From the NCBI GenBank assembly GCA_026625185.1, contig CP113000.1:2922651-2954650 (forward strand): a stretch of DNA of 32,000 bases. Direction: 5' to 3'. Source of the stretch: Thermodesulfobacteriota bacterium. GTDB taxonomy: Bacteria > Desulfobacterota > WTBG01 > JAGOGO01. Positions 4,170-29,069 of the stretch are shown here, piece by piece; positions within the stretch are counted from its first letter, which is position 1; the number at the start of each line of letters is the position of its first letter. The translations under genes were made by a program, and so were the position numbers. The notes beneath the pieces were generated by a model that was not told the DNA's origin, did no database searches, and worked only from the letters and a program-made list of their open reading frames with translations.

Positions 4170-5588
4170 ATGAGGCATTTCCTTGTCATTACAAAAAGTA
4201 AAAAGGTTTTTAAAACCATTCAAGGATCCTTTGGTCAAAATTACTCGGTTGAAAAAGCTTCCAATAAAAATATTGGATTGGAAATGCTTCGGACGAAGCG
4301 TTACGAATTTATCTTTATTGACTTAGCGCTTCTTTCAGAATCACTAAAAGGCAACGAATATAAATTAGCCTTACAAGCCTTTTGGCAGTTGAACCCTTCC
4401 GCAGAAATAATTGTTATGTCTCCTCCCGAAATGATCCGGGAATCGGTGATGGCCGTCAAAGCAGGGGCGAGTAATTACCTGACCTACCCTATTAATCTTG
4501 ATGAGGTAACATATTTAACCGAAAGTATTTATGCATCATTGATCGTCCAATCAGAGCTTGATTATCTTCGCGACCAATTCTGGCAAAGCGATTCATTAGA
4601 AATCGTTCAAACTAAAAATCTTTTAGTTAAAAAAGTTTTTGATAAAATCCGTTCAGTCGCGCCAACTAAAAGTACCGTGCTTATTTCCGGTGAAACCGGT
4701 ACCGGCAAAGGCGTGCTGGCCCAATTAATCCACAAACACAGCAATCGAAAAGATTCCCCTTTTATAAATGTCCATTGCGGAGCAATCCCTGACACCCTTT
4801 TGGAAAGTGAACTCTTCGGCCACGAAAAAGGTGCGTTCACTGGCGCGGTCCGTCGGAAATTAGGGAAATTTGAAATTGCCAAAGGCGGAACGATTTTTCT
4901 GGATGAAATTGCTACTATTACACCATCCGCACAGATCAAGCTTCTTCAAATTATCCAGGAAGGAACATTCAATCGGGTAGGCGGCGAAGAAACTATTGAA
5001 GCCAATGTAAGAGTTATCGCGGCCACCAATAGCTCTCTAAGAATAATGTGTGACGAAGGTCACTTCCGGACGGACCTTTATTATCGCCTAAATGTGTTCC
5101 CCATTGATATACCCCCCTTGAGAGAAAGAAGAGAAGATATTCCATTCTTTGTTGAAGTGATTTTAAAAAAACTAAACAAATTTCACACAAAAAATATCCA
5201 TAATATTCATCCCCAGGTCATGGAAGCTTTCAACCAATATCTGTGGCCGGGAAATATCCGCGAACTTGAGAACTTGATGGAGCGAGCTTATATCTTGGAA
5301 ACTTCACCAATATTAACCCAAGAAAGCTTTCCGAGTGAAATTTTTTCCTCCAAAGACTCCACTTCACTCATATTTGTTGACACTTTATCCACCCTTGCCG
5401 AGACAAGACGCCGCAGTATTGAACATTTTGAAAAGCAGTATATTAAAGAAATTTTGACCCAACACAGAGGAAGGATAAACGAATCGGCATCAACCGCTGG
5501 TATCAGCACTCGACAATTAAACAAATTAATGACCCGCTACGGAATTAAGAAAGAAGAATTCAAGCCCAAAAACCTGCCGTTAGACTAA
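4170..5588 (+). CDS. Sigma-54-dependent transcriptional activator (NtrC/Fis family EBP) with a degenerate N-terminal receiver domain
   Basis: 472 aa. AAA+ Walker A GETGTGKG, sigma-54 contact loop ESELFGHEKGAFTGA, Walker B GTIFLDEI, R-finger region. C-terminal Fis-type HTH ESASTAGISTRQLNKLM. The receiver-like N-terminus keeps the Asp in FIFIDL but lacks the acidic pair (LVITKSK) and the conserved Lys (YLTYP). Confidence 0.9.
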   Translation: MRHFLVITKSKKVFKTIQGSFGQNYSVEKASNKNIGLEMLRTKRYEFIFIDLALLSESLKGNEYKLALQAFWQLNPSAEIIVMSPPEMIRESVMAVKAGASNYLTYPINLDEVTYLTESIYASLIVQSELDYLRDQFWQSDSLEIVQTKNLLVKKVFDKIRSVAPTKSTVLISGETGTGKGVLAQLIHKHSNRKDSPFINVHCGAIPDTLLESELFGHEKGAFTGAVRRKLGKFEIAKGGTIFLDEIATITPSAQIKLLQIIQEGTFNRVGGEETIEANVRVIAATNSSLRIMCDEGHFRTDLYYRLNVFPIDIPPLRERREDIPFFVEVILKKLNKFHTKNIHNIHPQVMEAFNQYLWPGNIRELENLMERAYILETSPILTQESFPSEIFSSKDSTSLIFVDTLSTLAETRRRSIEHFEKQYIKEILTQHRGRINESASTAGISTRQLNKLMTRYGIKKEEFKPKNLPLD

Positions 5589-5863: not shown

Positions 5864-5879
5864 TGGCATAGTTATCGCT
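5864..5879 (+). promoter_or_regulatory. Candidate sigma-54 (-24/-12) promoter: TGGCAT-N5-TCGCT
   Basis: tGGcatagttatcGCt matches TGGCACG-N4-TTGCW with the correct GG-to-GC spacing. It lies 276 nt downstream of the EBP gene and in the same orientation. The predicted TSS is about 5889-5891, abutting the ATG at 5892. Confidence 0.4.
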
Positions 5880-5891
5880 GATGTTCATAAC

Positions 5892-6227
5892 ATGGCAAAT
5901 AGTCCTGAAAAAAAAATCACCGCCCCGTTAAAGAAAAAAAAAGGTAAAGATAGTTCGTCTTTGGTCACCTTACGGGGTGTGGTAATACCAGTAGATTGGG
6001 ACTCCGAGGGAAAGGTAATTGCCAATGCTATTTCCACCCACCATGAAGACGAATACCTAATTGTGGATGAAGAAAATACTATTGAAATGAATAACCTTAT
6101 TAATGAAGAGGTAGAAATAACTGGTATATATAAAAAAAGGGGTGACAAGAAGATCATAAAAGTAAAAACTTGCACCCGGATCACTACTGAGTCACCAGCG
6201 CATAAATCTTCAGGCAACAACGTGTAA
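5892..6227 (+). CDS. Hypothetical small protein (111 aa), lysine-rich N-terminus followed by a beta-rich segment
   Basis: ORF MANSPEKKITAPLKKKKGKD...LRGVVIPVDWDSEGKVIANAISTHHEDEYLIV...EVEITGIYKKRGDKKIIKV. I recognise no family. It is the first gene after the candidate sigma-54 promoter. No SD is present. Confidence 0.45.
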   Translation: MANSPEKKITAPLKKKKGKDSSSLVTLRGVVIPVDWDSEGKVIANAISTHHEDEYLIVDEENTIEMNNLINEEVEITGIYKKRGDKKIIKVKTCTRITTESPAHKSSGNNV

Positions 6228-6239
6228 ACCGGAGCATGT

Positions 6240-6548
6240 GTGAATAGAAAAAAAGTTTTTCTTGCCATGGTCGTTATAGGCCTTTTAATCGCTTATTTTC
6301 TCTTGCTGTCAAATATTTTGGCTGCGCCAAGTGTAATGAAAGGTATCGTTATTTCCGATTCCAAAATTTTATCTGATGATGGAAAAACCTATAAAATTAA
6401 TAATTCCGAAAATACATTCAGCTTATCTTCTTGCGTTGGGAAAAGGGTCGAGGTTGTCGGCATCGTTGAAGATTTAGAAGGAGAAATTGAAATAACCTTA
6501 AATTCATTTAAAATCCTTTCGGATTTCCCTAATAAAAGGAGAAGTTAA
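6240..6548 (+). CDS. Hypothetical small exported/anchored protein (102 aa)
   Basis: GTG start. N-terminal signal/TM KKVFLAMVVIGLLIAYFLLLSNILAAP, then MKGIVISDSKILSDDGKTYKI...GKRVEVVGIVEDLEGEIEITL. This pattern resembles the preceding ORF. Confidence 0.5.
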   Translation: MNRKKVFLAMVVIGLLIAYFLLLSNILAAPSVMKGIVISDSKILSDDGKTYKINNSENTFSLSSCVGKRVEVVGIVEDLEGEIEITLNSFKILSDFPNKRRS

Positions 6549-6612
6549 ATGATTACTTTCAGTGGGAGCATTTATCTCCCGTTCTTTCAACCATAGGGGG
6601 CATAAGACATAT

Positions 6613-7947
6613 ATGGAAAAAGGAGTCTTTTTCCCTGAAGAAGTTGAACCTCCCGGTATACGTTGCGACTCTGGAGTTCCAGAAAACAGCATAAATTTCT
6701 ATTCGACAACGCATTTAAGATACCAGGATAAGTCGACAATTAACTGGCCTTCAAAAACTCGAACTACTCCCGCATTTAAATGTAATAAAAAAACAAAAAG
6801 GTTTCGAAAAATTTTTTATCCTGGAGTATCCAACCAAGAATGGACCGACTGGCGTTGGCAATTGAAAAACCGAATAAAGAATCTTTTCCAATTGGAACGT
6901 TTTTTCCCCCTTTCCGAAAATGAACTAAAAACCTTATCTTTTCGCCGCTCCCTTCTTCCCCTTTCTATTACCCCCTATTATGCCAGTCTTCTCGATGGGA
7001 CTGACCAATTGCAGCCTCTCCGCAGAACAGTCGTCCCTGATATTGCGGAACACTTTCACGGCCATGGAGAATCGGAAGATCCCCTCGGGGAAGAAAAGGA
7101 CACTCCTGTCCCCGGCCTAGTCCATCGGTATCCGGACCGAGTTTTATTCCTTGTTACTGATACCTGTTCAAATTATTGCCGCTATTGTACCCGATCCCGA
7201 ATGGTGGGAAATGAAAATTCCAAGCAATTCAATTTTTTTAATTGGCAAAAGGCCATCGCTTACATTGAATCCCAACCAACTGTTCGGGACGTGCTTTTGT
7301 CCGGAGGTGACCCCTTAACTCTTTCGGACGAAAAACTGGAATGGCTTTTATCTCGACTGCGACGCATTCCCCATATTGAATTTTTACGAATTGGAACTAA
7401 AGTCCCTGTTGTTCTACCTCATCGAATTACCCCTTCCTTAACCAGAATTTTAAAACGTTACCATCCTCTTTGGATGAGCATCCATTTCACCCATCCTGAG
7501 GAGTTGACATCAGAAGTAGGTCAAGCTTGTGAACGTTTGGCAAATGCCGGAATACCTTTAGGAAGTCAGACGGTGCTTTTAAAAAATATCAATGATAATA
7601 TAGAGGTTATGAAAAAACTATTTACCGGGCTCCTACGCATACGAGTAAGGCCCTATTACCTTTATCAATGCGACCCGATTTTTGGGTCAGAACACTTCCG
7701 CACACCGGTAGAAAAAGGTCTAGAGATTATTAAAGGCCTGCGCGGTTTCATTACTGGGTACGCAGTGCCCACATATGTTATTGATGCTCCAGGAGGTGGA
7801 GGAAAAATTCCGCTGCTTCCTGAATCTGTATGCGGGCAAGATGGCGAAAACTTGCTCCTCAAAAATTATAAGGGCGAAACCTTCTCCTATCCTGATCACA
7901 AAGAAGAAAAAAAATCGGCAATAACCGACAGTACGCTATGGCAATAG
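6613..7947 (+). CDS. kamA: Lysine 2,3-aminomutase (KamA/AblA family radical SAM, PLP-dependent), makes beta-lysine
   Basis: Radical-SAM CSNYCRYCTRSR; N-terminal WTDWRWQLKNRI; LLSGGDPL; RVRPYYLYQCD; VIDAPGGGGKIP. The track ORF starts at 6562. The first ATG is at 6613 with a G-rich stretch upstream. Either start leaves a ~75-aa basic N-terminal extension before the conserved core. Confidence 0.9.
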   Translation: MEKGVFFPEEVEPPGIRCDSGVPENSINFYSTTHLRYQDKSTINWPSKTRTTPAFKCNKKTKRFRKIFYPGVSNQEWTDWRWQLKNRIKNLFQLERFFPLSENELKTLSFRRSLLPLSITPYYASLLDGTDQLQPLRRTVVPDIAEHFHGHGESEDPLGEEKDTPVPGLVHRYPDRVLFLVTDTCSNYCRYCTRSRMVGNENSKQFNFFNWQKAIAYIESQPTVRDVLLSGGDPLTLSDEKLEWLLSRLRRIPHIEFLRIGTKVPVVLPHRITPSLTRILKRYHPLWMSIHFTHPEELTSEVGQACERLANAGIPLGSQTVLLKNINDNIEVMKKLFTGLLRIRVRPYYLYQCDPIFGSEHFRTPVEKGLEIIKGLRGFITGYAVPTYVIDAPGGGGKIPLLPESVCGQDGENLLLKNYKGETFSYPDHKEEKKSAITDSTLWQ

Positions 7948-9011
7948 AAAAAAAACTACCCCGGGTTGGCATTACGTATGACCTGCGGCAAGACTATCTT
8001 GCTCAAGGATTCAGTGAAGAAGAAACCGCTGAGTTTGATCGCATTGATACTATTGAAGCGATTGAACAAGCCTTAGAAGATTTAGGTTTCGAAACTAATC
8101 GTATCGGCAATATCTTTAACTTAACGAAAAGAATCGCTGACGGTGAATCCTGGGATTTGGTGTTTAATATCGCCGAAGGCCTGAAAGGATTTGCCCGGGA
8201 GGCCCAAGTTCCTGCATTGCTTGATGCCTTTAACATTCCCTATACGTTTTCTGACCCCTTGGTACTGTCTCTTTCGCTTCACAAAGCATTGACCAAGCGG
8301 GTAATGCGTGATCTGGGTATCCCAACTCCTGATTTTTTTGTGGTAGAAAATCATTTAGATATTGATCTGGTTAACCTTCCATTTCCTCTTTTTGCCAAGC
8401 CAATCGCAGAGGGCACGGGTAAAGGGATCACCCCTTCGTCGAAAGTTGAAAACCCGCATGAGTTAGAAAATATTTGCGCAAATCTTTTAATTAATTATCA
8501 TCAACCCGTGCTTCTCGAGACTTTTCTTCCGGGACGTGAATTCACCGTTGGAATACTTGGTACTGGAAATGAAGCTGAAGCGATCGGTGCGTTGGAGATC
8601 GTATTGCGTGAGCAAGCTGAACCAACCGCTTACTCTTATGTCAATAAAGAACGCTGTGAAGATTTAGTAGAATATCGAATGGTAAATGAATCGTTATCTC
8701 GCAAAGCTCAAGAAATCGCTCTCAAAGCCTGGCAGGGACTTGGATGCCGTGATGCGGGCCGGGTTGATTTGAAGGTTGATATTCACGGAACACCCAACCT
8801 CATTGAGGTTAATCCTCTTGCGGGACTACATCCTGCGCATTCCGACCTTCCGATCTTGTGCCGGGCTGTTGGGATAAGCTACCCCCACCTTATCGGAAGA
8901 ATCATGGCCTCTGCCCTGAAACGTGCAAAGTCATTGTTTGTTGAGCCGGTAAAACAATTACCTTTTAAAAAATATCCGGAAACATTAAACCCTCTATGTT
9001 TGGTTAGCTAA
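7938..9011 (+). CDS. ATP-grasp ligase, D-alanine--D-alanine ligase-like family (substrate unknown)
   Basis: 357 aa. Ddl-like pre-ATP-grasp region VGITYDL...EFD..DTIEAIEQALEDLGF...WDLVFNIAEG..G..REAQVPALLDAFNIPYTFS. ATP-grasp core LFAKPIAEGTGKGI...LLETFLPGREFTVGILG...GRVDLKVD..G.PNLIEVNPLAG. The ATG overlaps the kamA stop by 10 nt. Confidence 0.8.
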   Translation: MAIEKKLPRVGITYDLRQDYLAQGFSEEETAEFDRIDTIEAIEQALEDLGFETNRIGNIFNLTKRIADGESWDLVFNIAEGLKGFAREAQVPALLDAFNIPYTFSDPLVLSLSLHKALTKRVMRDLGIPTPDFFVVENHLDIDLVNLPFPLFAKPIAEGTGKGITPSSKVENPHELENICANLLINYHQPVLLETFLPGREFTVGILGTGNEAEAIGALEIVLREQAEPTAYSYVNKERCEDLVEYRMVNESLSRKAQEIALKAWQGLGCRDAGRVDLKVDIHGTPNLIEVNPLAGLHPAHSDLPILCRAVGISYPHLIGRIMASALKRAKSLFVEPVKQLPFKKYPETLNPLCLVS

Positions 9012-9019
9012 AACAGCCG

Positions 9020-10087
9020 ATGAAAGCGGTTATCTTGCACGATCGCATACCCCTAAATGCAAATTTTGATCACCAGGATGTTTTATATCAGTCAGAAGCG
9101 ATTGCCAATCTTCTCAAAGAGTTAAGGTATGACCCGGTAGAAATAAGCGTATCCCTTAACCTTAAGGAACTTATCGAAGCTTTAACGGCCATTAACCCTT
9201 CTATAGTTTTTAACTTAGTTGAATCAATTGAAGGTCAGGGTCGCCTTATTCATCTTATTCCATCAATCCTTGATTATCTCAAACTGACTTATACTGGTTC
9301 AAAAACAGAACCCCTTTTCTTAACGTCAAACAAAATCATTGCTAAAAAGCTTCTTATCAAAGCGGGTATTTTAACCAGTTCTGCACTTTCGCTCGAGGAA
9401 CTCAAATACAATAAAAATGTAAAAGTGAATGGCTTATATATTATTAAATCTGTCTGGGAACACGCCTCACAAGGTATTGATGAAAACTCAGTAATCACCG
9501 TAAAAGACAAGGATCACCTTATAAAAGCACTCCGGTCTAAAGAAAATCAACTCGGGGGCGAATGTATCGCTGAACAATACATTGAAGGCCGGGAATTTAA
9601 CCTCTCTCTTTTAGCGTCACCAAAAGGGCCAGAAGTTCTTCCACCGGGTGAGATTATATTCGAAGATTATCCTCAGGAAAAAATAAAAATAGTATGTTAC
9701 CGTGCAAAATGGGTCGAAGGCTCATTTGAATATCTCCACACGCCTCGAACCTTTGAATTTTCTTCTCTTCAAGATCATGCCTTACTTCGCCGACTTAAAA
9801 AAATTGCAAAAAAATGCTGGAATCTTTTTGACTTGCATGGTTATGCCCGGGTAGATTTTCGAGTGGATAAATTCGATAACCCCTTTGTCTTGGAAGTAAA
9901 CGCCAATCCGTGCATTTCACCTGATTCTGGTTTTGTTGCTGCAGCAGCGCAAACCGGAATAAGCATGAAACGCGTGATTGAAAGAATAATCAGCGATGCA
10001 TTCCAGCCGGCTTATTCCGGATTGAGTTATAAAATCTCGCCCAAGCTAAGGGAGCAGTGCCCATCTTTTTTTGTACCTTTAACTTGA
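9020..10087 (+). CDS. Second ATP-grasp ligase, D-alanine--D-alanine ligase-like family (paralogous architecture, substrate unknown)
   Basis: 355 aa. VFNLVESIEGQGRLIHLIPSILDYLKLTYTGS; YIIKSVWEHASQGI; AEQYIEGREFNLSLL; GYARVDFRVDKFDNPFVLEVNANP. Starts 8 nt after the previous stop. Confidence 0.8.
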   Translation: MKAVILHDRIPLNANFDHQDVLYQSEAIANLLKELRYDPVEISVSLNLKELIEALTAINPSIVFNLVESIEGQGRLIHLIPSILDYLKLTYTGSKTEPLFLTSNKIIAKKLLIKAGILTSSALSLEELKYNKNVKVNGLYIIKSVWEHASQGIDENSVITVKDKDHLIKALRSKENQLGGECIAEQYIEGREFNLSLLASPKGPEVLPPGEIIFEDYPQEKIKIVCYRAKWVEGSFEYLHTPRTFEFSSLQDHALLRRLKKIAKKCWNLFDLHGYARVDFRVDKFDNPFVLEVNANPCISPDSGFVAAAAQTGISMKRVIERIISDAFQPAYSGLSYKISPKLREQCPSFFVPLT

Positions 10088-10141
10088 AGGATTCACGACA
10101 CCTTATCGCAAACATTTCATCCTCGCAGGAGAAAAATAATC

Positions 10142-10678
10142 ATGCAATTGGCCGACTATGAAGAGTATCGTATAAAATCACAATCAAATATTATCATTCG
10201 CCCGATCCTTGCCTGCGATAAGGAAAAACTTTTTCATCTCGTAAAACAACGGGGCACATTTAATGAAAAGGAAATCGAAATTGCCATAGAAGTCATTGAG
10301 GATACCCTTACATTCCCCGAAAAAAAAGAATATTATACTTTTTGCGCGCTTGAGGACAATGGAGATATTGCTGGATTTATCTGTTTTGGCCCCATCCCCA
10401 TGACCGACAGATGTTACGACCTTTATTGGATTGCGGTAGACGAAAAATTTTCCCGCAATGGCATTGGTAAAAAACTCCTTGAAGCTATGGAAAATTTTGT
10501 GGTTAAAGAAAAAGCACGTCGTATCTATATCGACACCTCTTCTACTGCTCCGTATACACCTGCAAGAACTTTTTATGAAAACCATGGGTTTCGTTTAGTT
10601 ACAGTGCTCCTAGATTTTTATCGGCTCGGTGATGACAAGATCATCTTAATGAAAGAATTAACAAGTAATGAGATGTAA
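10142..10678 (+). CDS. GNAT-family N-acyltransferase
   Basis: 178 aa. GNAT motif A region YWIAVDEKFSRNGIGKKLLEAME and C-terminal FYENHGF. SD aggag lies 9 nt upstream. Confidence 0.8.
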   Translation: MQLADYEEYRIKSQSNIIIRPILACDKEKLFHLVKQRGTFNEKEIEIAIEVIEDTLTFPEKKEYYTFCALEDNGDIAGFICFGPIPMTDRCYDLYWIAVDEKFSRNGIGKKLLEAMENFVVKEKARRIYIDTSSTAPYTPARTFYENHGFRLVTVLLDFYRLGDDKIILMKELTSNEM

Positions 10679-10712
10679 AATGAAAAATGCTTTTTTAATA
10701 AAAGGAGATAAA

Positions 10713-11399
10713 GTGAAAATCAATTTTTTCTCTATTTTAATAGCATTGTTATGCTGTTTTTTATTTTCGGTCACTTGTTTTGCGGGAAAACTCGAAACCC
10801 GCGTGGAAAATTCCATTGATGTTTTAAATGAAATCATGGCCATTCCTGAAAAAGGCATCCCGATTGATCTTTTGAAACGTTGCCGGGCGGTTGCCATCTT
10901 TCCCAGTGTGTTAAAAGGAGCTTTTATTTTCGGCGCTCAAGGCGGAAAAGGAATTATCTGTTCTCATGATCCTCAAACCGGACAGTGGAGTCCTCCGGCC
11001 TTTTTTACTATTGGTGCGGGGAGTTGGGGTTTGCAAATCGGTGGTCAATCAACTGATATACTGCTGGTCATCATGACTAAACGAGGTTTAGACAGCCTTT
11101 TGACCACAAAAGTAAAGCTTGGTGGTGATATAGGGGTTGCGGCTGGCCCAGTGGGTCGAAGAGCCGAAGCCGGGGTTGATCTTCTTCTCCGTGCTGAAAT
11201 TTTATCCTACTCACGAAGTAAAGGGTTGTTTGCGGGACTTTCCTTGGAAGGTGCTACCATTTTTCAAAATCCGGATGCAAACCGGGCTTTTTACGGAAAA
11301 GAACTTTCCGGCCGAGATATCCTGATTGATAAAAAGATTAAACCTACCCCTGACGGTAAAAAATTGATAAATACTTTGGAAAAATATTCTTCACATTAA
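10713..11399 (+). CDS. SYLF (Ysc84/DUF500) domain protein with signal peptide
   Basis: Core GAQGGKGIICSHD...WSPPAFFTIGAGSWGLQIGGQSTDILLVIM...KLGGDIGVAAGPVGR. The track start is 10668. I prefer the GTG at 10713 because it follows a strong SD (aaaggagataaaGTG) and yields the signal peptide MKINFFSILIALLCCFLFSVTCFA. Confidence 0.75.
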   Translation: MKINFFSILIALLCCFLFSVTCFAGKLETRVENSIDVLNEIMAIPEKGIPIDLLKRCRAVAIFPSVLKGAFIFGAQGGKGIICSHDPQTGQWSPPAFFTIGAGSWGLQIGGQSTDILLVIMTKRGLDSLLTTKVKLGGDIGVAAGPVGRRAEAGVDLLLRAEILSYSRSKGLFAGLSLEGATIFQNPDANRAFYGKELSGRDILIDKKIKPTPDGKKLINTLEKYSSH

Positions 11400-12392: not shown

Positions 12393-13787
12393 ATGGCACA
12401 ATTGACATTCTTAGGCGCAACCGGAACCGTTACCGGATCACGTTTTCTTTTAGATTCTGAAAAAAGAAAACTACTCGTTGACTGTGGTTTATTCCAGGGT
12501 TTAAAACAAGATCGACTGAAAAATTGGGAGCCCTTCCCAATCCCCCAGGTAAAAATTGACCGCGTCCTGTTGACACATGCCCATTTAGACCACAGTGGTT
12601 ATTTACCTCGTTTTATCAAGCAAGGCTTTACCGGGAAAGTTCATAGTACCTGGTCTACCTTTGATCTTTGCAGGATTATGCTCCGGGACAGCGGCCACCT
12701 CCAGGAAGAAGATGCCTACTGGGCAAATAAAAAGAAGTTCTCAAAACACGAGCCGGCGCTTCCTTTGTATACCGTAAAGGATGCGGAAAATTCTCTAAAA
12801 TATTTTGACCCGGTTTTTTATGGACAAGACCTCTTGGTTGCCGATTCTCTTCGGGTAAAGTTCAGGGATGCCGGACATATCTTGGGTTCCTCCTTTATTG
12901 ATATTAAGAATACCTCCAATAATAGAATACGGAAAATTTTATTTACCGGCGACCTTGGTCGCCCCTCTCGCCCTATTCTGAGAGATCCGGTCCAGGTATT
13001 TGAGGTGGATTATCTTATTCTTGAATCTACCTATGGTGACCGGCTCCATGATTCCAAACCACCAGAGGAAGAATTAGCCCGGGTAATCAATGAAAGCGTG
13101 AAAAGGGGAGGATCTTTGGTTATCCCCTCCTTTGCCGTGGGCCGCACCCAAGAGTTATTATTCTGCATTCGAGAATTGGAAGAAGAGGGTAAAATCCCCT
13201 CCCTCCCGGTTTTTGTCGACTCCCCAATGGCAATAGATGCCACCATGGTCTTTGAAAAAAGAAAAGGAGATTATGACATTGAGTCCAAGGTTTTGGAACT
13301 TGAAGGAAAAAATGTCCTGAAGACGCGACAGATTAAATTTTGCCGCTCCACCGAAGAGTCAAAACAGCTTGATGAACAAAAAATCTCTGGAATTATTATC
13401 TCGGCAAGCGGGATGGTAGAAGGAGGCCGCATTCTTCATCATCTTGCCCACCGGCTTCCGAATCCCCAACATACGGTATTGTTTATTGGATTCCAGGCGG
13501 CAGGAACACGCGGTCACACTATATTGGAAGGAAAACCCATGGTAAAAATTCATGGGCAACAAATCCCGATCCGCGCTAAAATCGAAAACATTTCGGGTTT
13601 TTCTGCCCACGCTGATTATAATGAAATCCTTGCCTGGCTTATGGGATTTAACCGGCCTCCTTTAAAAACTTTCATTGTTCACGGAGAACCAGAGGCCGCA
13701 GAAGCTCTGTCTGAAAAAATTAAGCGCAAATTTGGCTGGGACGTCGTTATCCCAAAATTTAAGGAAACCTTTGAAATCGATTTTTAA
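12393..13787 (+). CDS. MBL-fold metallo-hydrolase with beta-CASP domain (CPSF/RNase J-like RNA-metabolising nuclease)
   Basis: 464 aa. HxHxDH motif LTHAHLDHSGYLP, then FRDAGHILGS, ILESTYGDR and a C-terminal SGFSAHADYNEIL. SD gggagg upstream. Confidence 0.85.
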   Translation: MAQLTFLGATGTVTGSRFLLDSEKRKLLVDCGLFQGLKQDRLKNWEPFPIPQVKIDRVLLTHAHLDHSGYLPRFIKQGFTGKVHSTWSTFDLCRIMLRDSGHLQEEDAYWANKKKFSKHEPALPLYTVKDAENSLKYFDPVFYGQDLLVADSLRVKFRDAGHILGSSFIDIKNTSNNRIRKILFTGDLGRPSRPILRDPVQVFEVDYLILESTYGDRLHDSKPPEEELARVINESVKRGGSLVIPSFAVGRTQELLFCIRELEEEGKIPSLPVFVDSPMAIDATMVFEKRKGDYDIESKVLELEGKNVLKTRQIKFCRSTEESKQLDEQKISGIIISASGMVEGGRILHHLAHRLPNPQHTVLFIGFQAAGTRGHTILEGKPMVKIHGQQIPIRAKIENISGFSAHADYNEILAWLMGFNRPPLKTFIVHGEPEAAEALSEKIKRKFGWDVVIPKFKETFEIDF

Positions 13788-19408: not shown

Positions 19409-20203
19409 TCAAGTGCTGGTAAAGGCAGGTTTCCGTTTTTCGATGAAGGCGGTAATCCCTTCTTTCTGGTCAGAATGAGAAAAACAAAGGCCAAAAGAAT
19501 CAGATTCAATCTGACAAGCGGTCTTAAGATCAAGATCAAACCCCGCTTCAACCGCTGATTTCGCCAGACGCACAGCCCAAGCCCCCTTTGAAACGATCGT
19601 AGAAGCTGTTTTTTTTGCCGCGGCAAGAAGGTCTTCGGCCGGAAAAACCTTATTAATAATTCCCAACTCTTTTGCTTCCTGGGCGCCGATCATTTGTCCG
19701 GTATATATAAGTTCTTTGGCATGGCTTTTTCCAATCAGCCGGGCAAGCCTTTGAGTGCCGCCAAACCCTGGGATTAATCCCAAATTAATCTCCGGCTGGC
19801 CAAACTTGGCATCATCGGAAGCAAAAATAAAGTCGCACGCCAAAGCCAGTTCCATTCCTCCACCTAAAGCAAAACCATTCACCGCCGCGATAACCGGTTT
19901 GCCGATGTTTTCTATAGTCTCCATCAGGGTGTGACCAAATTTCGAAAATCGTCTTCCTTCTTGAGGGGTAAGACCAAGCATTTCTTTAATATCAGCCCCT
20001 GCCACAAATGCTTTTCCTTCTCCGGTAAGGATAATGGCCCGAACATTCACATCCTTTTCTAATTCTTGAAAAGCGGCAAGAAGTTCGAGGAGCACTTCCT
20101 GGTTGAGCGCATTCAACGCTTGAGGCCGGTTAACCTTGAGCAATGCAATACTATTAGCAATCTCTAACAAAAGGGTATTATAGGCCATTTGTTTAAGCCT
20201 CAT
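19409..20203 (-). CDS. crt: Enoyl-CoA hydratase (crotonase family)
   Basis: 264 aa. FVAGADIKEM, AAVNGFALGGGMELALACD, FGQPEINLGLIPGFGGTQRL. Confidence 0.88.
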   Translation of the reverse strand: MRLKQMAYNTLLLEIANSIALLKVNRPQALNALNQEVLLELLAAFQELEKDVNVRAIILTGEGKAFVAGADIKEMLGLTPQEGRRFSKFGHTLMETIENIGKPVIAAVNGFALGGGMELALACDFIFASDDAKFGQPEINLGLIPGFGGTQRLARLIGKSHAKELIYTGQMIGAQEAKELGIINKVFPAEDLLAAAKKTASTIVSKGAWAVRLAKSAVEAGFDLDLKTACQIESDSFGLCFSHSDQKEGITAFIEKRKPAFTST

Positions 20204-20275
20204 TATAACTTATTTTTTAATTATTATAGTATATTGTAAAAATAACTTAAACCATCAATTTAATTTTTCTCTTTG

Positions 20276-21133
20276 TTATTTCTTATTATAATCGTAAAAT
20301 CCTTTACCTGTCTTCCGGCCTAAATTTCCCGTGCGAACCATCTGCTTAAGAAGCGGACACGGACGATATTTAGAATCCCCGAATTCAGCGTATAAGGTCT
20401 CCATAATCGTCAGGGCCGTGTCTAAACCAATCATATCTAAAAGAGCGATAGGCCCAATCGGATGATGACAACCCAGTTTCATCCCATTATCAATATCCTC
20501 TTTGCTGGCAACTCCCTCCATTAAAGTAAAAACCGCCTCATTAAGCATGGGGATGAGAATCCGGTTCACCATAAATCCGGGAAAGTCTTTTATCTCAATG
20601 CCGGTTTTCCCGATTTTATTTACCACCTCTTTCACCACCTGAAAGGCCTCATCCGAAGTCTCTAATCCGCGGATAATTTCCACCAGCTGCATCACCGGCA
20701 CGGGATAGAAAAAGTGGAGGCCAATAACACGTTTTGGACGATTCGTAAAAGAAGCAATCTCCGGGATGCTCAGTGACGACGTATTGGAAGCAAACACCAC
20801 TTTTGGGTCGCATAAATTGCTGATTTCCTCGTAAAAACTCTTTTTTTTCGCTTTATTTTCTGAAATCGTCTCAATGATCAGTTCACAAGGCTTTAGGTCC
20901 TCAAGCTTTATGGTTCCCTTTATTCGCCCCAGAACAACATCGTATTCCTGCTGAGTCATTTTTTCTTTCTGAACCAAATGGCTTAAGTTGTCTTTGATGG
21001 TTTTTAACCCATTCTCCAGAAAACGGTCTTCGATATCCCGCAACACTATTATATAACCCGCCTGAGACAACACCTGAGCAATGCCGCTGCCCATCAGCCC
21101 CGCCCCAACCACCCCAATAATTTTTATATCCAT
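20276..21133 (-). CDS. hbd: 3-hydroxyacyl/3-hydroxybutyryl-CoA dehydrogenase
   Basis: Rossmann [37 protein letters not shown]-terminal [11 protein letters not shown]. The track start is 21208. I prefer the ATG at 21133 ([12 protein letters not shown]), which follows the SD aaaggaga. Confidence 0.88.
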
Positions 21134-21164
21134 AGTATCTCCTTTTAAAGGCACTGTTACCCAA

Positions 21165-22457
21165 TTAGACTCGTTCAAGAATCGCGGCCATGCCTTGCCC
21201 GCCGCCAATACACATGGTCACCAAACCTAAGTTTGAATTCTTACGTTTCATTTCATTCATGAGCGTTACGACCAGCCGAGCCCCGGTGCACCCAATGGGA
21301 TGTCCCAATGAAAGCCCGCCTCCCAAAAGATTGGTCTTTTCCATGGTCAGGCCTAATTCTCTCAAGCACGCAATCGATTGAGAGGCAAAGGATTCATTCA
21401 ATTCCAGCACATCAATATCCTTCATAGTAAGGCCGGCTTGTTTCAGCGCTTTTTTACAGGCCGGGACCGGACCAAGTCCCATATAAGCCGGATCCAATCC
21501 TCCGGCGGCAAAGGTCTTGATTTTCACAATCGGGGTTAACCCTAATTCCTTTGCCTTATCTTTGCTCATTAATACCACTGCGGCCGACGCGTCATTAATG
21601 CCTGCGGCATTCCCGGCAGTCACCGTCCCGTCTTTCTTAAAAGCCGGGGCTAATTTTGCCATCTTTTCCATATTGGTATCCATAGGGCGCTCATCAGTAT
21701 CAAAGACCATGGAATCGCCTTTTTTCCGGGGAGTTATGACCGGCACGATCTCCTGGGCAAAAATACCCTTTTTAATTGCTTCTCGGGCCCGTTGATGACT
21801 CAAAACACCGAATTCATCCTGCTCTTTACGGCTAATTCCGTATAATGCCGCGATATTTTCCGCGGTCATTCCCATGTGATAGTTATAAAAAATTTCGTAA
21901 AGCCCATCAAAAACCATTAAATCGATGAGTTCCCCGCGGGAGCTTACATCCATCCGATAACCCCACCTGGCTTTCGGCAAAGCATAGGGAGCGCCACTCA
22001 TGCTTTCCATACCACCGGCAACTACCACATCAGTTAAACCGGCCATGATACTGGTAGCGCCAACGGTTATGGCTTTTAAACCGGAAGCGCAAATCTTGTT
22101 CACGGTCATGGCATTGACCTCTTTGGGAAACCCGGCCTGAATCATCGCCTGACGGGTAGTATTTTGTCCCTGGCCGGCCTGGAAAACATTTCCCATCACC
22201 ACTTCATCAACCGACACCGGAATAGCTGAATCATCCCAATCCTGCGCCTTTTTCTCCAGAGCAATCATACCCTGACCTTTTAACTTTTCTGGTGCAGATT
22301 CCAGAAGCTCTTTGCTTACAATTGGTTTAAGGCCAGCCTTTCTCATTACTTCCTTTAAAACAATGGCCCCTAATTTAACTACCGGCACATCTTTTAAAGA
22401 TCCGCCAAAATTTGCAATGGGTGTTCGCACGCCGCTTACAATAACTACTTCTTTCAT
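21165..22457 (-). CDS. Acetyl-CoA acetyltransferase (thiolase II family) with an N-terminal-region insertion
   Basis: 430 aa. Nucleophile Cys in [12 protein letters not shown]-terminal [10 protein letters not shown] and CIGGGQGMA. An extra ~35 aa ([38 protein letters not shown]) sits where typical thiolases run straight from KAG.. to DEV.MGNV. Confidence 0.88.
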
Positions 22458-26370: not shown

Positions 26371-27012
26371 TTACTTACCAAACGATGAAAAATAGGATTT
26401 TATTATTTTGATCATTACCTCCTGACCTAAAACCGCGATATCTTCGGTGGAGAAAAATTCCGTAATGCAGGCGTCAAAAAGGATTTGAAGATCAGGAGGA
26501 AACTCATCATCGGCAAACCATAAAACTAAGGTAACCGGCACGCGCGGAAACACGGAAATTTTTATCCCTGTATCACCGATGTTAACTGGTTGACCTCCCA
26601 GACCTTCCGCGATGGATTTAAAAGCCTGAGGTTTTGCGCTAAAGGTTTTGAGAAGCGGTTCAATGGATCTGCGGGCAAAGGCCGGATAATAAAATTCTCC
26701 GGAAGGGATTTCTTTGAAAGAGATTAACCTGTTTGCAAGGGGAATATCTTTAACACCATTAAGGTAATGAAGGATCAAAATCTGATTGGAAAGATTTATA
26801 TTCTCTCCGCTTTCCTTGAGAGAAAATTGGAAATGGGGAATAGTAACTTGGCAGGTAGTTTTAAAAGAAAGAAGATAAATCGTGCCCCCACCATCGGAAG
26901 GTTGCCATTCCGCGCCAGCGATCCGGCATCGTTCTTTTAAATCAGACTGCAAAAGAAGAACCTGAGCGAGTTCAAGAGCTTTCCGATATTCTTTATCGCG
27001 AGAGTAATCCAT
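26371..27012 (-). CDS. DUF3786-like protein commonly linked to acetyl-CoA pathway / metF clusters
   Basis: 213-aa ORF, 13 nt downstream of metF in the same operon. The assignment rests on recollection of the family's size, its N-terminal helical region (YRKALELAQVLL..DLKERCRIAGAEW) and genomic context. It was not searched. Confidence 0.55.
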   Translation of the reverse strand: MDYSRDKEYRKALELAQVLLLQSDLKERCRIAGAEWQPSDGGGTIYLLSFKTTCQVTIPHFQFSLKESGENINLSNQILILHYLNGVKDIPLANRLISFKEIPSGEFYYPAFARRSIEPLLKTFSAKPQAFKSIAEGLGGQPVNIGDTGIKISVFPRVPVTLVLWFADDEFPPDLQILFDACITEFFSTEDIAVLGQEVMIKIIKSYFSSFGK

Positions 27013-27025
27013 TGAAAAATTTTTT

Positions 27026-27910
27026 TTAACTGGCGGCGGCTAAAATTTCAGGAATCACCCCTTCCCTGCCGATGGCCATGATATGGACGCCGTCACAGAT
27101 CTTTTGCTCCCGCAATTGCCGGATCATCCTACCCGCAATTTCAACCCCTTTAGCTAACCCCTTTCCTTTTTCGGTGGAAGCCAGTTCATCAACAAGATTA
27201 TCGGGGACAAAAATCCCGGGAACGTTTTTATTCATGTATTTGGCCATACCGGCAGAAACCAAAAGTACCAAACCAGCCATGATCTTTATATCAAACTTTC
27301 GGGCATAATCCATGAACCTTCTGAAATTTTCGATATCATAGATGGCTTGAGTCTGAAAAAACCGCGCTCCCGCTTTAATCTTCTTTTCAAATTTTAGTAG
27401 TTGAGGCTCTATTGGTTTGGATTCTGGGGTTACGGTAGCCCCGATATAAAAATCAGTGCTTCCACTTAATTCATTGCCACCGATATCTTTCCCTTCATTG
27501 AGGGATTTAACCATGTGAATAAGCTGAGCCGAATCGAGGTCAAAGACCGGTTTGGCCTGGGGATGGTCCCCCACCGTGATATAATCACCAGTTAGACAAA
27601 GAACATTTCTGATCCCCAAGACATGGGCCCCCAGCAAGTCCGACTGCTGGGCGAGGCGATTCCGGTCTCTACAGGTCATCTGCAGAATGGGTTCACCACC
27701 CTTGTCCTTGATAATCTGACAGACTGCCAGGGAGGATATCCGCATTACCGAACTTTGGTTATCCGTCACATTGAGAGCATGAACTTTATCTTTGAGCAGG
27801 TCAATGTGATGGAACATCTCATCAATGTGGGTTCCTTTGGGAGGTCCCACTTCAGCCGTAATGGTAAATTCTCCTGACTCTAAGGTCTCGCGAAAACTTT
27901 TCTTATTCAT
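27026..27910 (-). CDS. metF: Methylenetetrahydrofolate reductase, MetF subunit
   Basis: MTHFR landmarks FTITAEVGPPKG, ALNVTDNQS, VLCLTGDY, ARFFQTQAIYD. The track start is 27934. The ATG at 27910 follows the SD aaggag and overlaps the metV stop by 8 nt, giving MNKKSFRETLESGEF. Confidence 0.88.
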   Translation of the reverse strand: MNKKSFRETLESGEFTITAEVGPPKGTHIDEMFHHIDLLKDKVHALNVTDNQSSVMRISSLAVCQIIKDKGGEPILQMTCRDRNRLAQQSDLLGAHVLGIRNVLCLTGDYITVGDHPQAKPVFDLDSAQLIHMVKSLNEGKDIGGNELSGSTDFYIGATVTPESKPIEPQLLKFEKKIKAGARFFQTQAIYDIENFRRFMDYARKFDIKIMAGLVLLVSAGMAKYMNKNVPGIFVPDNLVDELASTEKGKGLAKGVEIAGRMIRQLREQKICDGVHIMAIGREGVIPEILAAAS

Positions 27911-29032: not shown

Positions 29033-29069
29033 CCCGATCCCTTTCTTGAGTATTCCTGATTATGATCAT

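What the first reader, a model, noticed from the sequence alone, without database searches (positions are those of the whole stretch)
5864..10678. kamA + two Ddl-like ATP-grasp ligases + GNAT operon: candidate pathway for an uncharacterised beta-lysine-derived product
Seen in sequence:
- The genes are co-directional and tightly packed. kamA and ATP-grasp-1 overlap by 10 nt, an 8-nt gap precedes ATP-grasp-2, and 54 nt precede the GNAT.
- KamA has the radical-SAM CSNYCRYCTR motif and both acidic positions (YQCD and VIDAPGGGGK). In Clostridium subterminale LAM these Asp residues are recalled to bind the lysine epsilon-amino group, whereas glutamate 2,3-aminomutases replace them. The product is therefore probably beta-lysine.

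Established knowledge: the known fates of beta-lysine are N-epsilon-acetyl-beta-lysine (AblA + GNAT AblB), EF-P beta-lysylation (EpmB + the LysRS-like EpmA), fermentation (kamDE etc.) and streptothricin-type NRPS chemistry. None of these uses a pair of D-Ala-D-Ala-ligase-like ATP-grasp enzymes.

Inference: the two ligases could condense beta-lysine with itself or another amino or carboxylic acid, with the GNAT capping an amine. The product might be an acylated beta-lysyl di- or oligopeptide, such as an osmolyte, polyamine-like compound or envelope modifier. I know of no characterised system with this composition.
Basis: partly seen in the sequence, partly recalled or inferred. Interest (0 to 1): 0.75.

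Follow-up and report, generated by a model that had tools for sequence, protein, structure and literature searches.

The report
Orphan beta-lysine peptide-building operon
This is a real, tightly packed gene set, conserved across many bacterial phyla, that most likely converts lysine to beta-lysine and joins it into a small acetylated peptide-like molecule whose identity and purpose I could not find described.

Summary
In detail: the coordinates, overlaps, gaps and motifs are exactly as described.

**What each gene is**
- KamA is a clostridial-type lysine 2,3-aminomutase. It scores 445 bits to PDB 2A5H. The Fe-S cysteines, the PLP lysine and both epsilon-amine-binding Asp residues are invariant in 72/72 orthologues. 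It is not EpmB-type.
- The two ATP-grasp proteins have the D-Ala-D-Ala ligase (Ddl) fold and an intact catalytic core. They fall far below the Ddl HMM cut-offs and have changed D-Ala-pocket residues.

**Conservation**
- In 80 genomes from at least a dozen phyla, kamA lies just upstream of ATP-grasp-1 in 74/79 loci. ATP-grasp-2 follows in about 69/75, and the GNAT follows in at least 47/60.
- Natural AG1-AG2 and AG2-GNAT fusion proteins exist.
- About 20% of loci add an acetylpolyamine-amidohydrolase-like deacetylase.
- The cluster is present in the cultured Oleidesulfovibrio alaskensis G20. PDB 2R7H ("putative D-alanine N-acetyltransferase") belongs to its GNAT family and is 99% identical to a protein in the G20 GNAT's sequence cluster.

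**Regulation here:** a sigma-54 activator and a sigma-54-type promoter sit upstream.

**Literature:** ten full-text searches found no paper describing the cluster.

**Best reading:** an ATP-grasp pathway, independent of the ribosome and of NRPS enzymes, to a small N-acetylated beta-lysine (pseudo)peptide. The product is unknown.

The parts
4170..5588 (+). NtrC-type sigma-54-dependent response regulator (REC-AAA+-HTH); probable activator of the operon in this lineage
   Evidence: NCBIfam hits AtoC/NtrC/ZraR-type models, all below equivalog cut-offs. An orthologue (47-69% identity) lies next to the cluster in 12 of 80 loci and in Desulfovibrio/Oleidesulfovibrio.
5864..5879 (+). sigma-54-type promoter-like element TGGCAT-N5-TCGCT (GG-N10-GC)
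   Evidence: Read directly from the sequence. A comparable TTGGCAY-N5-nnGCW element lies upstream of kamA in 7 of the 12 loci that carry the regulator and in only 4 of the 59 other loci scanned. It also occurs in D. mangrovi. This is a motif match only; function was not shown.
5892..6227 (+). orfA, a small DUF5818-like protein (111 aa); lineage-restricted accessory of unknown role
   Evidence: No Pfam hit of its own. phmmer cross-hits link orfA, orfB and DUF5818-matching ORFs. Such an ORF sits just upstream of kamA in about 16 of 80 loci.
6240..6548 (+). orfB, a second small DUF5818-like protein (102 aa) with a hydrophobic N-terminus
6562..7947 (+). KamA, lysine 2,3-aminomutase (radical SAM/PLP). 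The start is GTG 6562 or ATG 6613; the first ~80 residues are not conserved.
   Evidence: 445 bits to 2A5H. TIGR00238 scores 350, above its cut-off of 199. AblA scores 470 (<525), Glu-2,3-aminomutase 419 (<650), Arg-2,3-aminomutase 396 (<600) and EpmB 254 (<369). CxxxCxxC and the equivalents of D293, D330 and K337 are invariant in 72/72.
7938..9011 (+). AG1, a Ddl-fold ATP-grasp ligase, the most conserved partner of KamA
   Evidence: Pfam Dala_Dala_lig_C. AF2 pLDDT is 85 and the top Foldseek hits are Ddl structures (TMt about 0.8, 22-28% identity). It is 59-69% identical across phyla. The catalytic core is kept. DdlB S150->T, Y216->E and L282->D are invariant or nearly so.
9020..10087 (+). AG2, a second Ddl-fold ATP-grasp ligase (about 25% identical to AG1)
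   Evidence: AF2 pLDDT is 89.7 and the top Foldseek hits are Ddl structures. The core is kept. S150->A, K215-W216, H280->D, L282->G and G276->C are conserved. It is naturally fused to AG1 in 10, and to the GNAT in 21, of the best 150 family representatives.
10142..10678 (+). GNAT N-acetyltransferase of the 2R7H family
   Evidence: Pfam Acetyltransf_1/7/10. The best PDB hit is 2R7H at E 2e-27, sharing the YDLYWIAV and FY..GDDKII motifs. No AblB model was listed at E<=0.01.
10668..11399 (+). SYLF/Ysc84-domain lipoprotein gene overlapping the GNAT stop by 11 nt; probably co-transcribed but not part of the conserved module
   Evidence: Pfam Ysc84. Found after the cluster only in the two closest relatives, L001 and L002.

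Best explanation
The core is a four-enzyme pathway, independent of the ribosome and of NRPS enzymes, that makes a small N-acetylated beta-lysine-containing peptide or amide. Proposed steps:
1. In this lineage the operon is switched on from a sigma-54 promoter by the adjacent NtrC-type activator (inferred).
2. KamA isomerises L-lysine to (3S)-beta-lysine (strongly inferred from residue-level identity with the crystallised enzyme).
3. AG1, which is translationally coupled to KamA, uses ATP to form an acyl-phosphate and a first amide bond involving beta-lysine. Its Ddl-type pocket has gained two conserved acidic residues (Glu for DdlB Tyr216, Asp for Leu282). This fits a substrate with an extra ammonium group (inferred).
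4. AG2 adds a second amide bond (inferred).
5. The GNAT acetylates a remaining free amine with acetyl-CoA, most likely the epsilon-amine of the beta-lysyl unit (inferred).
6. In about one fifth of genomes an acetylpolyamine-amidohydrolase-like deacetylase removes that acetyl group, for turnover or maturation.
The product would be a cytoplasmic small molecule. It would be comparable to the acetylated dipeptide osmolyte N-acetylglutaminylglutamine amide (NAGGN) and to N-epsilon-acetyl-beta-lysine. My guess is a compatible solute or polyamine-like stress metabolite of anaerobes. That physiological role is the weakest step (about 0.3 on its own).
For: - KamA: 445 bits to 2A5H, with Asp293, Asp330 and Lys337 conserved and invariant in 72/72 orthologues. 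Lysine-type models score best.
- AG1 and AG2: Ddl fold. ATP-grasp residues K97, K144, E180, E187, R255, D257, E270 and N272 are invariant in 71 and 63 orthologues, so both are probably active. The D-Ala pocket residues are replaced in a family-specific way.
- Co-conservation in 80 genomes from many phyla: kamA upstream in 74/79, AG2 in about 69/75, GNAT in at least 47/60.
- Core pair: KamA + AG1 remains where AG2 and the GNAT are absent (L010, L029, L072, L073).
- Rosetta-stone fusions AG1-AG2 (10) and AG2-GNAT (21) among 150 representatives, colinear with the gene order.
- Extra GNAT-like + HDAC gene in 16/80 loci plus L081 and L084. Its best solved relatives are small-molecule acetylpolyamine amidohydrolases (E 1e-71 to 1e-58). 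Single-domain HDAC-like amidohydrolases and protein deacetylases score about 1e-33; only two-domain HDAC6 chains, matched over two stretches, approach the amidohydrolase scores.
- Sporadic same-operon neighbours: an M20 dipeptidase/deacylase, and an agmatinase-like domain fused to the GNAT.
- No conserved membrane, cell-wall, tRNA-synthetase-like or carrier-protein gene in the module.
Against: - No product has been observed, and no substrate of AG1, AG2 or the GNAT has been tested.
- The pocket argument rests on alignment to DdlB, not on a docked model.
- The genomes come largely from freshwater sediment, groundwater, peat and digesters (record titles), which does not particularly favour an osmolyte.
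- No dedicated transporter or osmosensor is conserved.
- AG1 is 59-69% identical across phyla, which is unusually high for secondary metabolism and could reflect a macromolecular partner.
- Five of 79 loci lack an adjacent kamA, so beta-lysine supply is not always encoded locally.
Confidence: 0.5

Rival explanations
1. Oligomer or polymer synthesis. AG1 and AG2 initiate and elongate a homo-oligomer of beta-lysine, or a cyanophycin-like nitrogen-rich polyamide. The GNAT caps or detoxifies the polycation, as streptothricin acetyltransferases do for beta-lysine chains, and the deacetylase reactivates or mobilises it.
For: There are two ligases but only one dedicated building-block enzyme. Both pockets carry acidic residues suited to a diamino acid. 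The acetylation/deacetylation pair occurs in about 20% of loci. The activator is NtrC-type, which could hint at nitrogen control. From established knowledge, ATP-grasp enzymes such as CphA and RimK do polymerise.
Against: No depolymerase or cyanophycinase-like gene, and no exporter, is conserved. Ddl-type enzymes are typically single-turnover dipeptide ligases. The KamA + AG1-only loci argue that one ligation already gives a useful product.
Confidence: 0.13
2. Modification of a macromolecule. Beta-lysine, or a beta-lysyl peptide, is ligated by the ATP-grasp enzymes onto a protein (an EF-P or ribosomal protein, RimK-like, or a small DUF5818-type protein) or onto a peptidoglycan precursor, and is then N-acetylated.
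For: AG1 and KamA are very highly conserved across phyla. The GNAT's weak best NCBIfam hit is RimI-like. Small DUF5818-like ORFs lie directly upstream in about 16 loci. The murein peptide ligase Mpl follows the cluster in two Desulfobacteraceae loci. From established knowledge, ATP-grasp ligases decorate S6 (RimK) and peptidoglycan stem peptides (D-Asp ligase).
Against: KamA is LAM-type, not EpmB-type, and no epmA or efp is nearby. No candidate target gene is conserved across phyla: DUF5818 ORFs occur mainly in Thermodesulfobacteriota, and Mpl in 2 of 59 scanned neighbour ORFs. The associated deacetylase is closest to small-molecule acetylpolyamine amidohydrolases. There are no membrane or Mur genes in the module.
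Confidence: 0.12
3. An ordinary N-epsilon-acetyl-beta-lysine osmolyte pathway (AblA/AblB equivalent) whose two ATP-grasp genes serve an unrelated or merely regulatory function.
For: KamA + GNAT is the known minimal set for that solute (PMC3543383, cites the methanogen work). The AblA model is the best-scoring equivalog.
Against: AG1, not the GNAT, is the invariant partner of KamA, with overlapping genes and KamA + AG1-only loci. AG2-GNAT and AG1-AG2 fusions tie the ligases to the acetyltransferase. The GNAT does not match the AblB model, and KamA is below the AblA cut-off.
Confidence: 0.08
4. Genuine D-Ala-D-Ala (or D-Ala-D-X) ligases for cell-wall synthesis that merely sit next to kamA; or, alternatively, a lysine-fermentation locus.
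For: Public annotations call both proteins 'D-alanine--D-alanine ligase', and the closest folds are Ddl.
Against: Scores are 146 and 111 bits against the Ddl subfamily cut-off of 243. Ser150, Tyr216 and Leu282 are replaced in all orthologues. There is no mur/fts context. [quoted passage not shown]
Confidence: 0.03

Closest known systems
AblA/AblB pathway to N-epsilon-acetyl-beta-lysine (methanogens, some bacteria)
   Same: A lysine 2,3-aminomutase is followed by a GNAT, with beta-lysine as the committed intermediate and acetylation neutralising an amine.
   Different: Two Ddl-fold ATP-grasp ligases sit between the two genes and are the better-conserved partners. KamA is below the AblA equivalog cut-off and the GNAT does not match AblB. 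The GNAT belongs to the 2R7H family.
N-acetylglutaminylglutamine amide (NAGGN) synthesis by Ngg (GNAT + ATP-grasp fusion) and AsnO
   Same: A small acetylated peptide is made by an ATP-grasp ligase coupled to, and sometimes fused with, a GNAT. AG2-GNAT fusions here mirror Ngg.
   Different: The ATP-grasp subfamily differs (Ddl-like rather than the type in Ngg) and the domain order is opposite. No amidotransferase is present, and the building block is beta-lysine rather than glutamine. The TIGR03103 match is negligible (14.9 bits against 569).
D-alanine--D-alanine ligase (Ddl/VanA family)
   Same: The same three-domain fold is present (TM about 0.8), with the same ATP/Mg and acyl-phosphate catalytic residues.
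   Different: Identity is 20-28%, scores are below the family cut-offs, the substrate-pocket residues are replaced, and there is no cell-wall gene context.
Glutathione-type two-step ligase pathways (GshA/GshB, fused GshF with a Ddl-like ATP-grasp domain)
   Same: Two consecutive ATP-dependent ligations build a tripeptide-sized metabolite, and the two ligases are sometimes fused (AG1-AG2 fusions).
   Different: Both ligases here are ATP-grasp enzymes. No cysteine or glutamate logic is evident. A radical-SAM aminomutase and an acetyltransferase are added.
EF-P beta-lysylation (EpmB/EpmA) and streptothricin/viomycin beta-lysine incorporation
   Same: A KamA-family enzyme supplies beta-lysine for amide-bond formation. 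Streptothricin resistance GNATs acetylate a beta-lysine amine.
   Different: There is no LysRS-like EpmA and no NRPS adenylation or carrier domain. KamA is LAM-type with a LAM_C domain.

Membership tests
Lysine 2,3-aminomutase (KamA family, TIGR00238; clostridial LAM type) | Radical-SAM CxxxCxxC cluster motif | tested here: met
   CSNYCRYC is present and is invariant in 72/72 orthologues.
Lysine 2,3-aminomutase (KamA family, TIGR00238; clostridial LAM type) | PLP-binding lysine (Lys337) and the two Asp residues (293, 330) that bind the lysine epsilon-ammonium | tested here: met
   Alignment to 2A5H; invariant in 72/72. The roles of these residues are taken from the published 2A5H structure, from memory.
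Lysine 2,3-aminomutase (KamA family, TIGR00238; clostridial LAM type) | Family HMM above its curated cut-off, and a LAM_C domain | tested here: met
   TIGR00238 scores 350 bits, above 199. PF12544 scores 63 bits, above 26.7.
AblA equivalog (osmolyte-type lysine 2,3-aminomutase, TIGR03820) | Score above the equivalog cut-off | tested here: not met
   470 bits against 525. It is the closest equivalog but falls outside the curated family.
EpmB (EF-P beta-lysylation aminomutase, TIGR03821) | Score above cut-off, and an epmA/efp neighbourhood | tested here: not met
   254 bits against 369. The Pfam scans of window ORFs found no LysRS-like or EF-P gene, and none recurred among the 80 loci.
Lysine 2,3-aminomutase activity | Conversion of L-lysine to beta-lysine | not testable with these tools
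   Needs an anaerobic enzyme assay.
D-alanine--D-alanine ligase (Ddl) | Family HMM above its curated cut-off | tested here: not met
   AG1 scores 146 bits and AG2 111 bits against 243 (NF002378); against TIGR01205 they score 120 and 88 against 246.
D-alanine--D-alanine ligase (Ddl) | D-Ala pocket residues (E. coli DdlB Ser150, Tyr216, Leu282, His63) | tested here: not met
   AG1 has T, E and D at the positions of Ser150, Tyr216 and Leu282, invariant or nearly so. AG2 has A, W and G at those positions. The position of His63 is variable in both families.
D-alanine--D-alanine ligase (Ddl) | ATP-grasp fold with the Mg/ATP and transition-state residues | tested here: met
   K97, K144, E180, E187, R255, D257, E270 and N272 are invariant. 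Foldseek TM is about 0.8 to Ddl structures. This shows they work like Ddl, not that they are Ddl.
AblB beta-lysine N-epsilon-acetyltransferase (TIGR03827) | Match to the family model | tested here: not met
   The model was not among the 13 NCBIfam hits at E<=0.01. The best structural relative is 2R7H.
NAGGN synthetase Ngg (TIGR03103) | GNAT + ATP-grasp bifunctional enzyme above the model cut-off, with an AsnO partner | tested here: not met
   14.9 bits against 569. No amidotransferase gene turned up in the neighbour scans. The relation is one of analogy only: AG2-GNAT fusions exist.
Acetylpolyamine amidohydrolase (APAH, HDAC fold): accessory gene in other genomes | Close sequence similarity to solved APAHs; presence in this window | tested here: inconclusive
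   L007 9996-11771 matches 9GKZ, 6PHR, 3MEN and 3Q9B at E 1e-71 to 1e-58. It is present in 16/80 loci plus L081 and L084, but it is absent from this window. Its substrate is untested.

The most novel reading that the evidence does not exclude
The cluster makes a previously unrecognised class of beta-lysine-based di- or tri-amide metabolite. The metabolite would be acetylated and deacetylated on demand, and would serve as a widespread compatible solute or polyamine surrogate of anaerobic bacteria from more than a dozen phyla. It would be built entirely by Ddl-derived ATP-grasp ligases. That would be a third route to beta-lysine amides, beside NRPS enzymes and the LysRS-like EpmA.
Probability: 0.5. 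Interest if true: 0.75.

Novelty: new variant of a known kind. Interest (0 to 1): 0.65.

Why it matters
- **Unrecognised metabolite.** If the reading is right, a sizeable fraction of anaerobic bacteria make a beta-lysine-derived metabolite that has gone unnoticed. At least 549 species-level genomes were hit by a narrow pattern search, and 962 AG2-family representatives have E<=1e-30.
- **Misleading annotation.** Both ligases are annotated as D-alanine--D-alanine ligase, and the solved GNAT structure 2R7H as a "putative D-alanine N-acetyltransferase". These labels inflate counts of cell-wall genes in metagenome-assembled genomes.
- **New chemistry for known folds.** The known fates of beta-lysine and the substrate range of the Ddl fold would both widen. 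That is of interest for peptide-ligase biocatalysis with beta-amino acids.
- **Directly testable.** The cluster is present in a cultured, sequenced sulfate reducer, Oleidesulfovibrio alaskensis G20, which from memory is also genetically tractable.

Tried and rejected
- **Literature.** They combined aminomutase, beta-lysine, beta-Lys, ATP-grasp, acetyltransferase, sigma54, Desulfovibrio, alaskensis, acetyl-beta-lysine and the guessed G20 locus tags Dde_3040 to Dde_3047. None found a description of this cluster. The 2009 survey of ATP-grasp/GNAT amidoligases by Iyer and colleagues, which might mention it, could not be retrieved.
- **Regulatory RNA.** An Rfam scan of the window for a lysine riboswitch or other RNA element found nothing.
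- **Defence system.** PADLOC gave no hits.
- **Terminators and sigma-70 promoters.** The scan found no more sites than the shuffled controls.
- **Extra conserved partners.** All ORFs of the 80 loci were clustered, and 59 downstream and 37 upstream same-strand neighbours were Pfam-scanned. Nothing recurs beyond the GNAT-like/HDAC gene, the sigma-54 regulator and the DUF5818-like ORFs.
- **Structure models.** AF2 and Foldseek confirmed the Ddl fold.
- **Rejected readings.** Genuine Ddl, EpmB-type EF-P modification, lysine fermentation and a plain AblA/AblB pair; see the rival explanations.

Full report
**Observation**

The region holds a co-directional, tightly packed gene row on the + strand:
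- orfA 5892-6227
- orfB 6240-6548
- KamA 6562 (GTG) or 6613 (ATG) to 7947
- ATP-grasp-1 (AG1) 7938-9011
- ATP-grasp-2 (AG2) 9020-10087
- GNAT 10142-10678

Pfam and NCBIfam give Radical_SAM + LAM_C for KamA, Dala_Dala_lig_C for both ATP-grasp proteins and Acetyltransf_1/7/10 for the GNAT. The stated start, 5864, is the first base of a TGGCAT-N5-TCGCT element with the GG-N10-GC spacing of sigma-54 promoters. An NtrC-type sigma-54 activator gene (4170-5588) lies just upstream.

**KamA**

The protein aligns over 360 residues with the crystallised Clostridium subterminale lysine 2,3-aminomutase (2A5H; 445 bits, E 2e-132). I counted residues along that alignment. YQCD ends in the equivalent of Asp293. 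VIDAPGGGGK contains the equivalents of Asp330 and the PLP lysine 337.

In an alignment of this KamA with 71 orthologues from the related loci, the three Fe-S cysteines, both Asp residues and the Lys are invariant in 72/72.

| NCBIfam model | Score (bits) | Cut-off (bits) |
|---|---|---|
| KamA-family subfamily (TIGR00238) | 350 | 199 |
| AblA | 470 | 525 |
| Glutamate 2,3-aminomutase | 419 | 650 |
| Arginine 2,3-aminomutase | 396 | 600 |
| EpmB | 254 | 369 |

The subfamily model is passed and no equivalog model is passed. So this is a lysine-type aminomutase of its own subfamily. It is not an EpmB, and no epmA or efp was found in the 32-kb window. Beta-lysine as the product is a strong inference, not a measurement. 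The first ~80 residues are unconserved, so the ATG at 6613 is a reasonable start.

**The two ATP-grasp proteins**

Both are distant Ddl relatives. The best PDB sequence hits are Ddl enzymes at E 4e-23 (AG1) and 1.5e-10 (AG2). They score 146 and 111 bits against a Ddl subfamily cut-off of 243. AlphaFold models built from 40-sequence alignments are confident (pLDDT 85 and 89.7). Their best Foldseek matches are all Ddl structures (TM normalised to target about 0.8, 20-28% identity).

I aligned 71 AG1 and 63 AG2 orthologues with E. coli DdlB.
- **Catalytic core.** K97, K144, E180, E187, R255, D257, E270 and N272 are invariant in both families. Both are therefore probably active ligases that work through an acyl-phosphate.
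- **AG1 pocket.** Ser150 becomes Thr and Leu282 becomes Asp, each in every aligned orthologue (71/71 and 70/70). Tyr216 becomes Glu, taken from the phmmer alignment and nearly invariant. Ser281 and Lys215 are kept.
- **AG2 pocket.** Ser150 becomes Ala, Lys215-Trp216 is invariant, His280 becomes Asp, Leu282 becomes Gly and Gly276 becomes Cys.

Neither is a genuine D-Ala-D-Ala ligase. The acidic replacements would suit a substrate with an additional ammonium group, such as a diamino acid. That last step is inference from an alignment, not from docking.

**Co-conservation**

A pattern scan of one genome per species found at least 549 relatives of AG1, and the best 80 loci were kept. Their record titles name the following lineages:
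- Thermodesulfobacteriota in many orders, and Myxococcales
- Acidobacteria, Verrucomicrobiota, Planctomycetota and Bacteroidota
- Ignavibacteria, Calditrichota, KSB1, a KSB3-type UASB bacterium and Krumholzibacteriia
- Sumerlaeota, Vulcanimicrobiota, WOR-3, Spirochaetota, Bacillota and an Alphaproteobacterium

AG1 is 59-69% identical throughout. tblastn of the window's proteins against these loci gave the following:
- kamA lies directly upstream of AG1 on the same strand in 74 of 79 evaluable loci.
- AG2 lies downstream in about 69 of 75.
- The GNAT lies downstream in at least 47 of 60.
- Four loci carry KamA + AG1 with no detectable AG2 or GNAT (L010, L029, L072, L073). That pair is therefore the core.

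A search of 1.84 billion cluster representatives with AG2 returned 962 proteins at E<=1e-30. Among the best 150, ten are AG1-AG2 fusions and 21 are AG2-GNAT fusions. I verified this by BLAST and by reading seven sequences. The fusion order matches the gene order. Together these results rule out chance adjacency and tie the three downstream enzymes to one pathway.

**Accessory parts found elsewhere**

- **Deacetylase.** Sixteen of the 80 loci, plus a 6.5-Mb contig (L081) and Desulfovibrio mangrovi (L084), carry a ~590-aa gene with a weak N-terminal GNAT-like region and a histone-deacetylase-fold domain. Its closest solved relatives are acetylpolyamine amidohydrolases (9GKZ, 6PHR, 3MEN, 3Q9B; E 1e-71 to 1e-58). 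Single-domain HDAC-like amidohydrolases and protein deacetylases score near 1e-33; only two-domain HDAC6 chains, matched over two stretches, approach the amidohydrolase scores. An N-epsilon-acetyl-beta-lysyl group resembles N-acetylputrescine. This supports a small-molecule product acetylated on a distal amine, although the enzyme is absent from this window.
- **Sporadic operon neighbours.** These point the same way, but each is a single case. An M20 dipeptidase/deacylase sits directly after the GNAT (L015). An agmatinase-like domain is fused to the GNAT (L032). A di-myo-inositol-phosphate-synthase-like gene occurs in L011.
- **Nothing else recurs.** No transporter, carrier protein, Mur enzyme or tRNA-synthetase-like gene recurs. 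Mpl follows the cluster in only two Desulfobacteraceae loci.

**Lineage-specific regulation and small ORFs**

The sigma-54 activator accompanies the cluster in 12 of 80 loci and in Desulfovibrio/Oleidesulfovibrio. A TTGGCAY-N5-nnGCW element lies upstream of kamA in 7 of those 12, in 4 of the 59 other loci scanned, and in D. mangrovi.

orfA and orfB are mutually related ~100-aa proteins of DUF5818 type. Such an ORF sits just upstream of kamA in about 16 loci, mostly Thermodesulfobacteriota. Their role is unknown. The SYLF lipoprotein, DnaJ-like, beta-CASP and LOG genes downstream are shared only with the two closest relatives and are not part of the module.

**Link to a cultured organism and a solved structure**

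The GNAT's best PDB match is 2R7H, deposited as "putative D-alanine N-acetyltransferase of GNAT family" (E 2e-27). A search with the aligned 2R7H sequence found a 99%-identical protein, P0241. P0241's 90% cluster contains ABB39838.1/WP_011368809.1 of Oleidesulfovibrio alaskensis G20.

Contigs carrying P0241 and the exact G20 protein show sigma-54 activator, KamA, AG1, AG2 and GNAT in that order. The SpoIIE phosphatase three genes further on fits the "Dde_3047 serine/threonine phosphatase" of PMC8836040. That agrees with my recollection that 2R7H is Dde_3044. The deposited name probably derives from the neighbouring "Ddl" annotations.

**What it most likely does**

The shown or strongly supported steps are these:
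- a lysine-type 2,3-aminomutase;
- two catalytically intact, non-Ddl ATP-grasp ligases;
- an acetyl-CoA-type GNAT;
- their obligate association, including fusions.

The inferred steps are these:
- AG1 takes beta-lysine and forms a first amide.
- AG2 forms a second amide.
- The GNAT acetylates a remaining amine, probably the epsilon-amine.
- The deacetylase, where present, reverses this.

The closest functional analogues are N-epsilon-acetyl-beta-lysine (AblA/AblB), the acetylated dipeptide osmolyte NAGGN made by a GNAT/ATP-grasp fusion, and two-ligase tripeptide pathways such as glutathione. I put 0.5 on a small acetylated beta-lysine (pseudo)peptide. Within that, I put about 0.3 on a compatible-solute or polyamine-like role, because the source habitats are not notably saline.

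The rivals are a beta-lysine oligomer or polymer (0.13), modification of a protein or peptidoglycan precursor (0.12), plain N-acetyl-beta-lysine synthesis (0.08), and genuine Ddl or lysine fermentation (0.03).

**Novelty and limits**

Ten full-text searches found no description of the cluster. The library lacks most subscription journals, and the 2009 amidoligase survey could not be read. Prior mention therefore cannot be excluded.

All four enzymes belong to known superfamilies, so this is a new variant of a known kind (an ATP-grasp small-peptide pathway fed by an aminomutase) rather than a new category. Its breadth, its conservation, the systematic mis-annotation and its presence in a cultured, sequenced organism make it a good experimental target.

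Noticed in passing
window 5892-6548; e.g. L027 6193-6516, L042 6292-6585, L012 11785-12491: Two tandem small ORFs (orfA, orfB) upstream of kamA are mutually related ~100-aa proteins of DUF5818 type. A similar ORF precedes kamA in about 16 of 80 loci, mostly Thermodesulfobacteriota. orfB has a hydrophobic N-terminus. Their function and their relation to the pathway are unknown.
   Followed up: partly
window 5864-5879 and 4170-5588: A sigma-54-type promoter-like element lies only ~12 nt before the orfA ATG, and an NtrC-type activator gene is adjacent. The motif recurs upstream of kamA in 7 of the 12 loci that carry the regulator. If it is real, the transcript would have an almost leaderless orfA.
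   Followed up: partly
L032 11674-13167: The cluster's GNAT appears to be fused to an agmatinase-like ureohydrolase domain (TIGR01230, 220 bits) in one deltaproteobacterial metagenome-assembled genome that also carries the HDAC-type gene. This hints at a guanidino-containing variant of the product.
   Followed up: no
L003 9099-14230: A three-gene cassette is inserted between AG1 and AG2 in a Verrucomicrobiota metagenome-assembled genome. It comprises a C25/CHAT-like peptidase, a transglutaminase fused to 7 transmembrane helices, and an ATPgrasp_ST ligase.
   Followed up: no
L048 4777-10013: This locus has an expanded arrangement, KamA, an AG2-like gene, GNAT, AG1 and AG2, so it contains a second AG2 paralogue. 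In addition, AG2 seems to fall into two subtypes (about 35% versus about 50% identity to the window's AG2). The subtypes do not track GNAT identity.
   Followed up: no
window 18712-17599 (- strand); shift site 18646-18641: The release factor 2 gene (prfB) carries the classic programmed +1 frameshift site: ATG ... AGGGGG TAC CTT TGA. This is a known phenomenon, and it explains why the listed ORF starts inside the PCRF domain.
   Followed up: yes
window 12393-13787: A beta-CASP metallo-beta-lactamase protein has as its best NCBIfam hit the 'type VII CRISPR-associated Cas14' model (404 bits, well below the 800 cut-off). It is probably an ordinary beta-CASP RNase. No CRISPR context was looked for.
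   Followed up: no
window 26371-31904 (- strand): DUF3786, MTHFR and a large HdrA-like Fe-S/FAD protein lie together. With the beta-oxidation genes at 19409-22457, this is typical of a Wood-Ljungdahl-using Thermodesulfobacteriota genome. AG2 is 100% identical to a protein of an NCBI Thermodesulfobacteriota metagenome-assembled genome on a 3.3-Mb contig (P0121).
   Followed up: no
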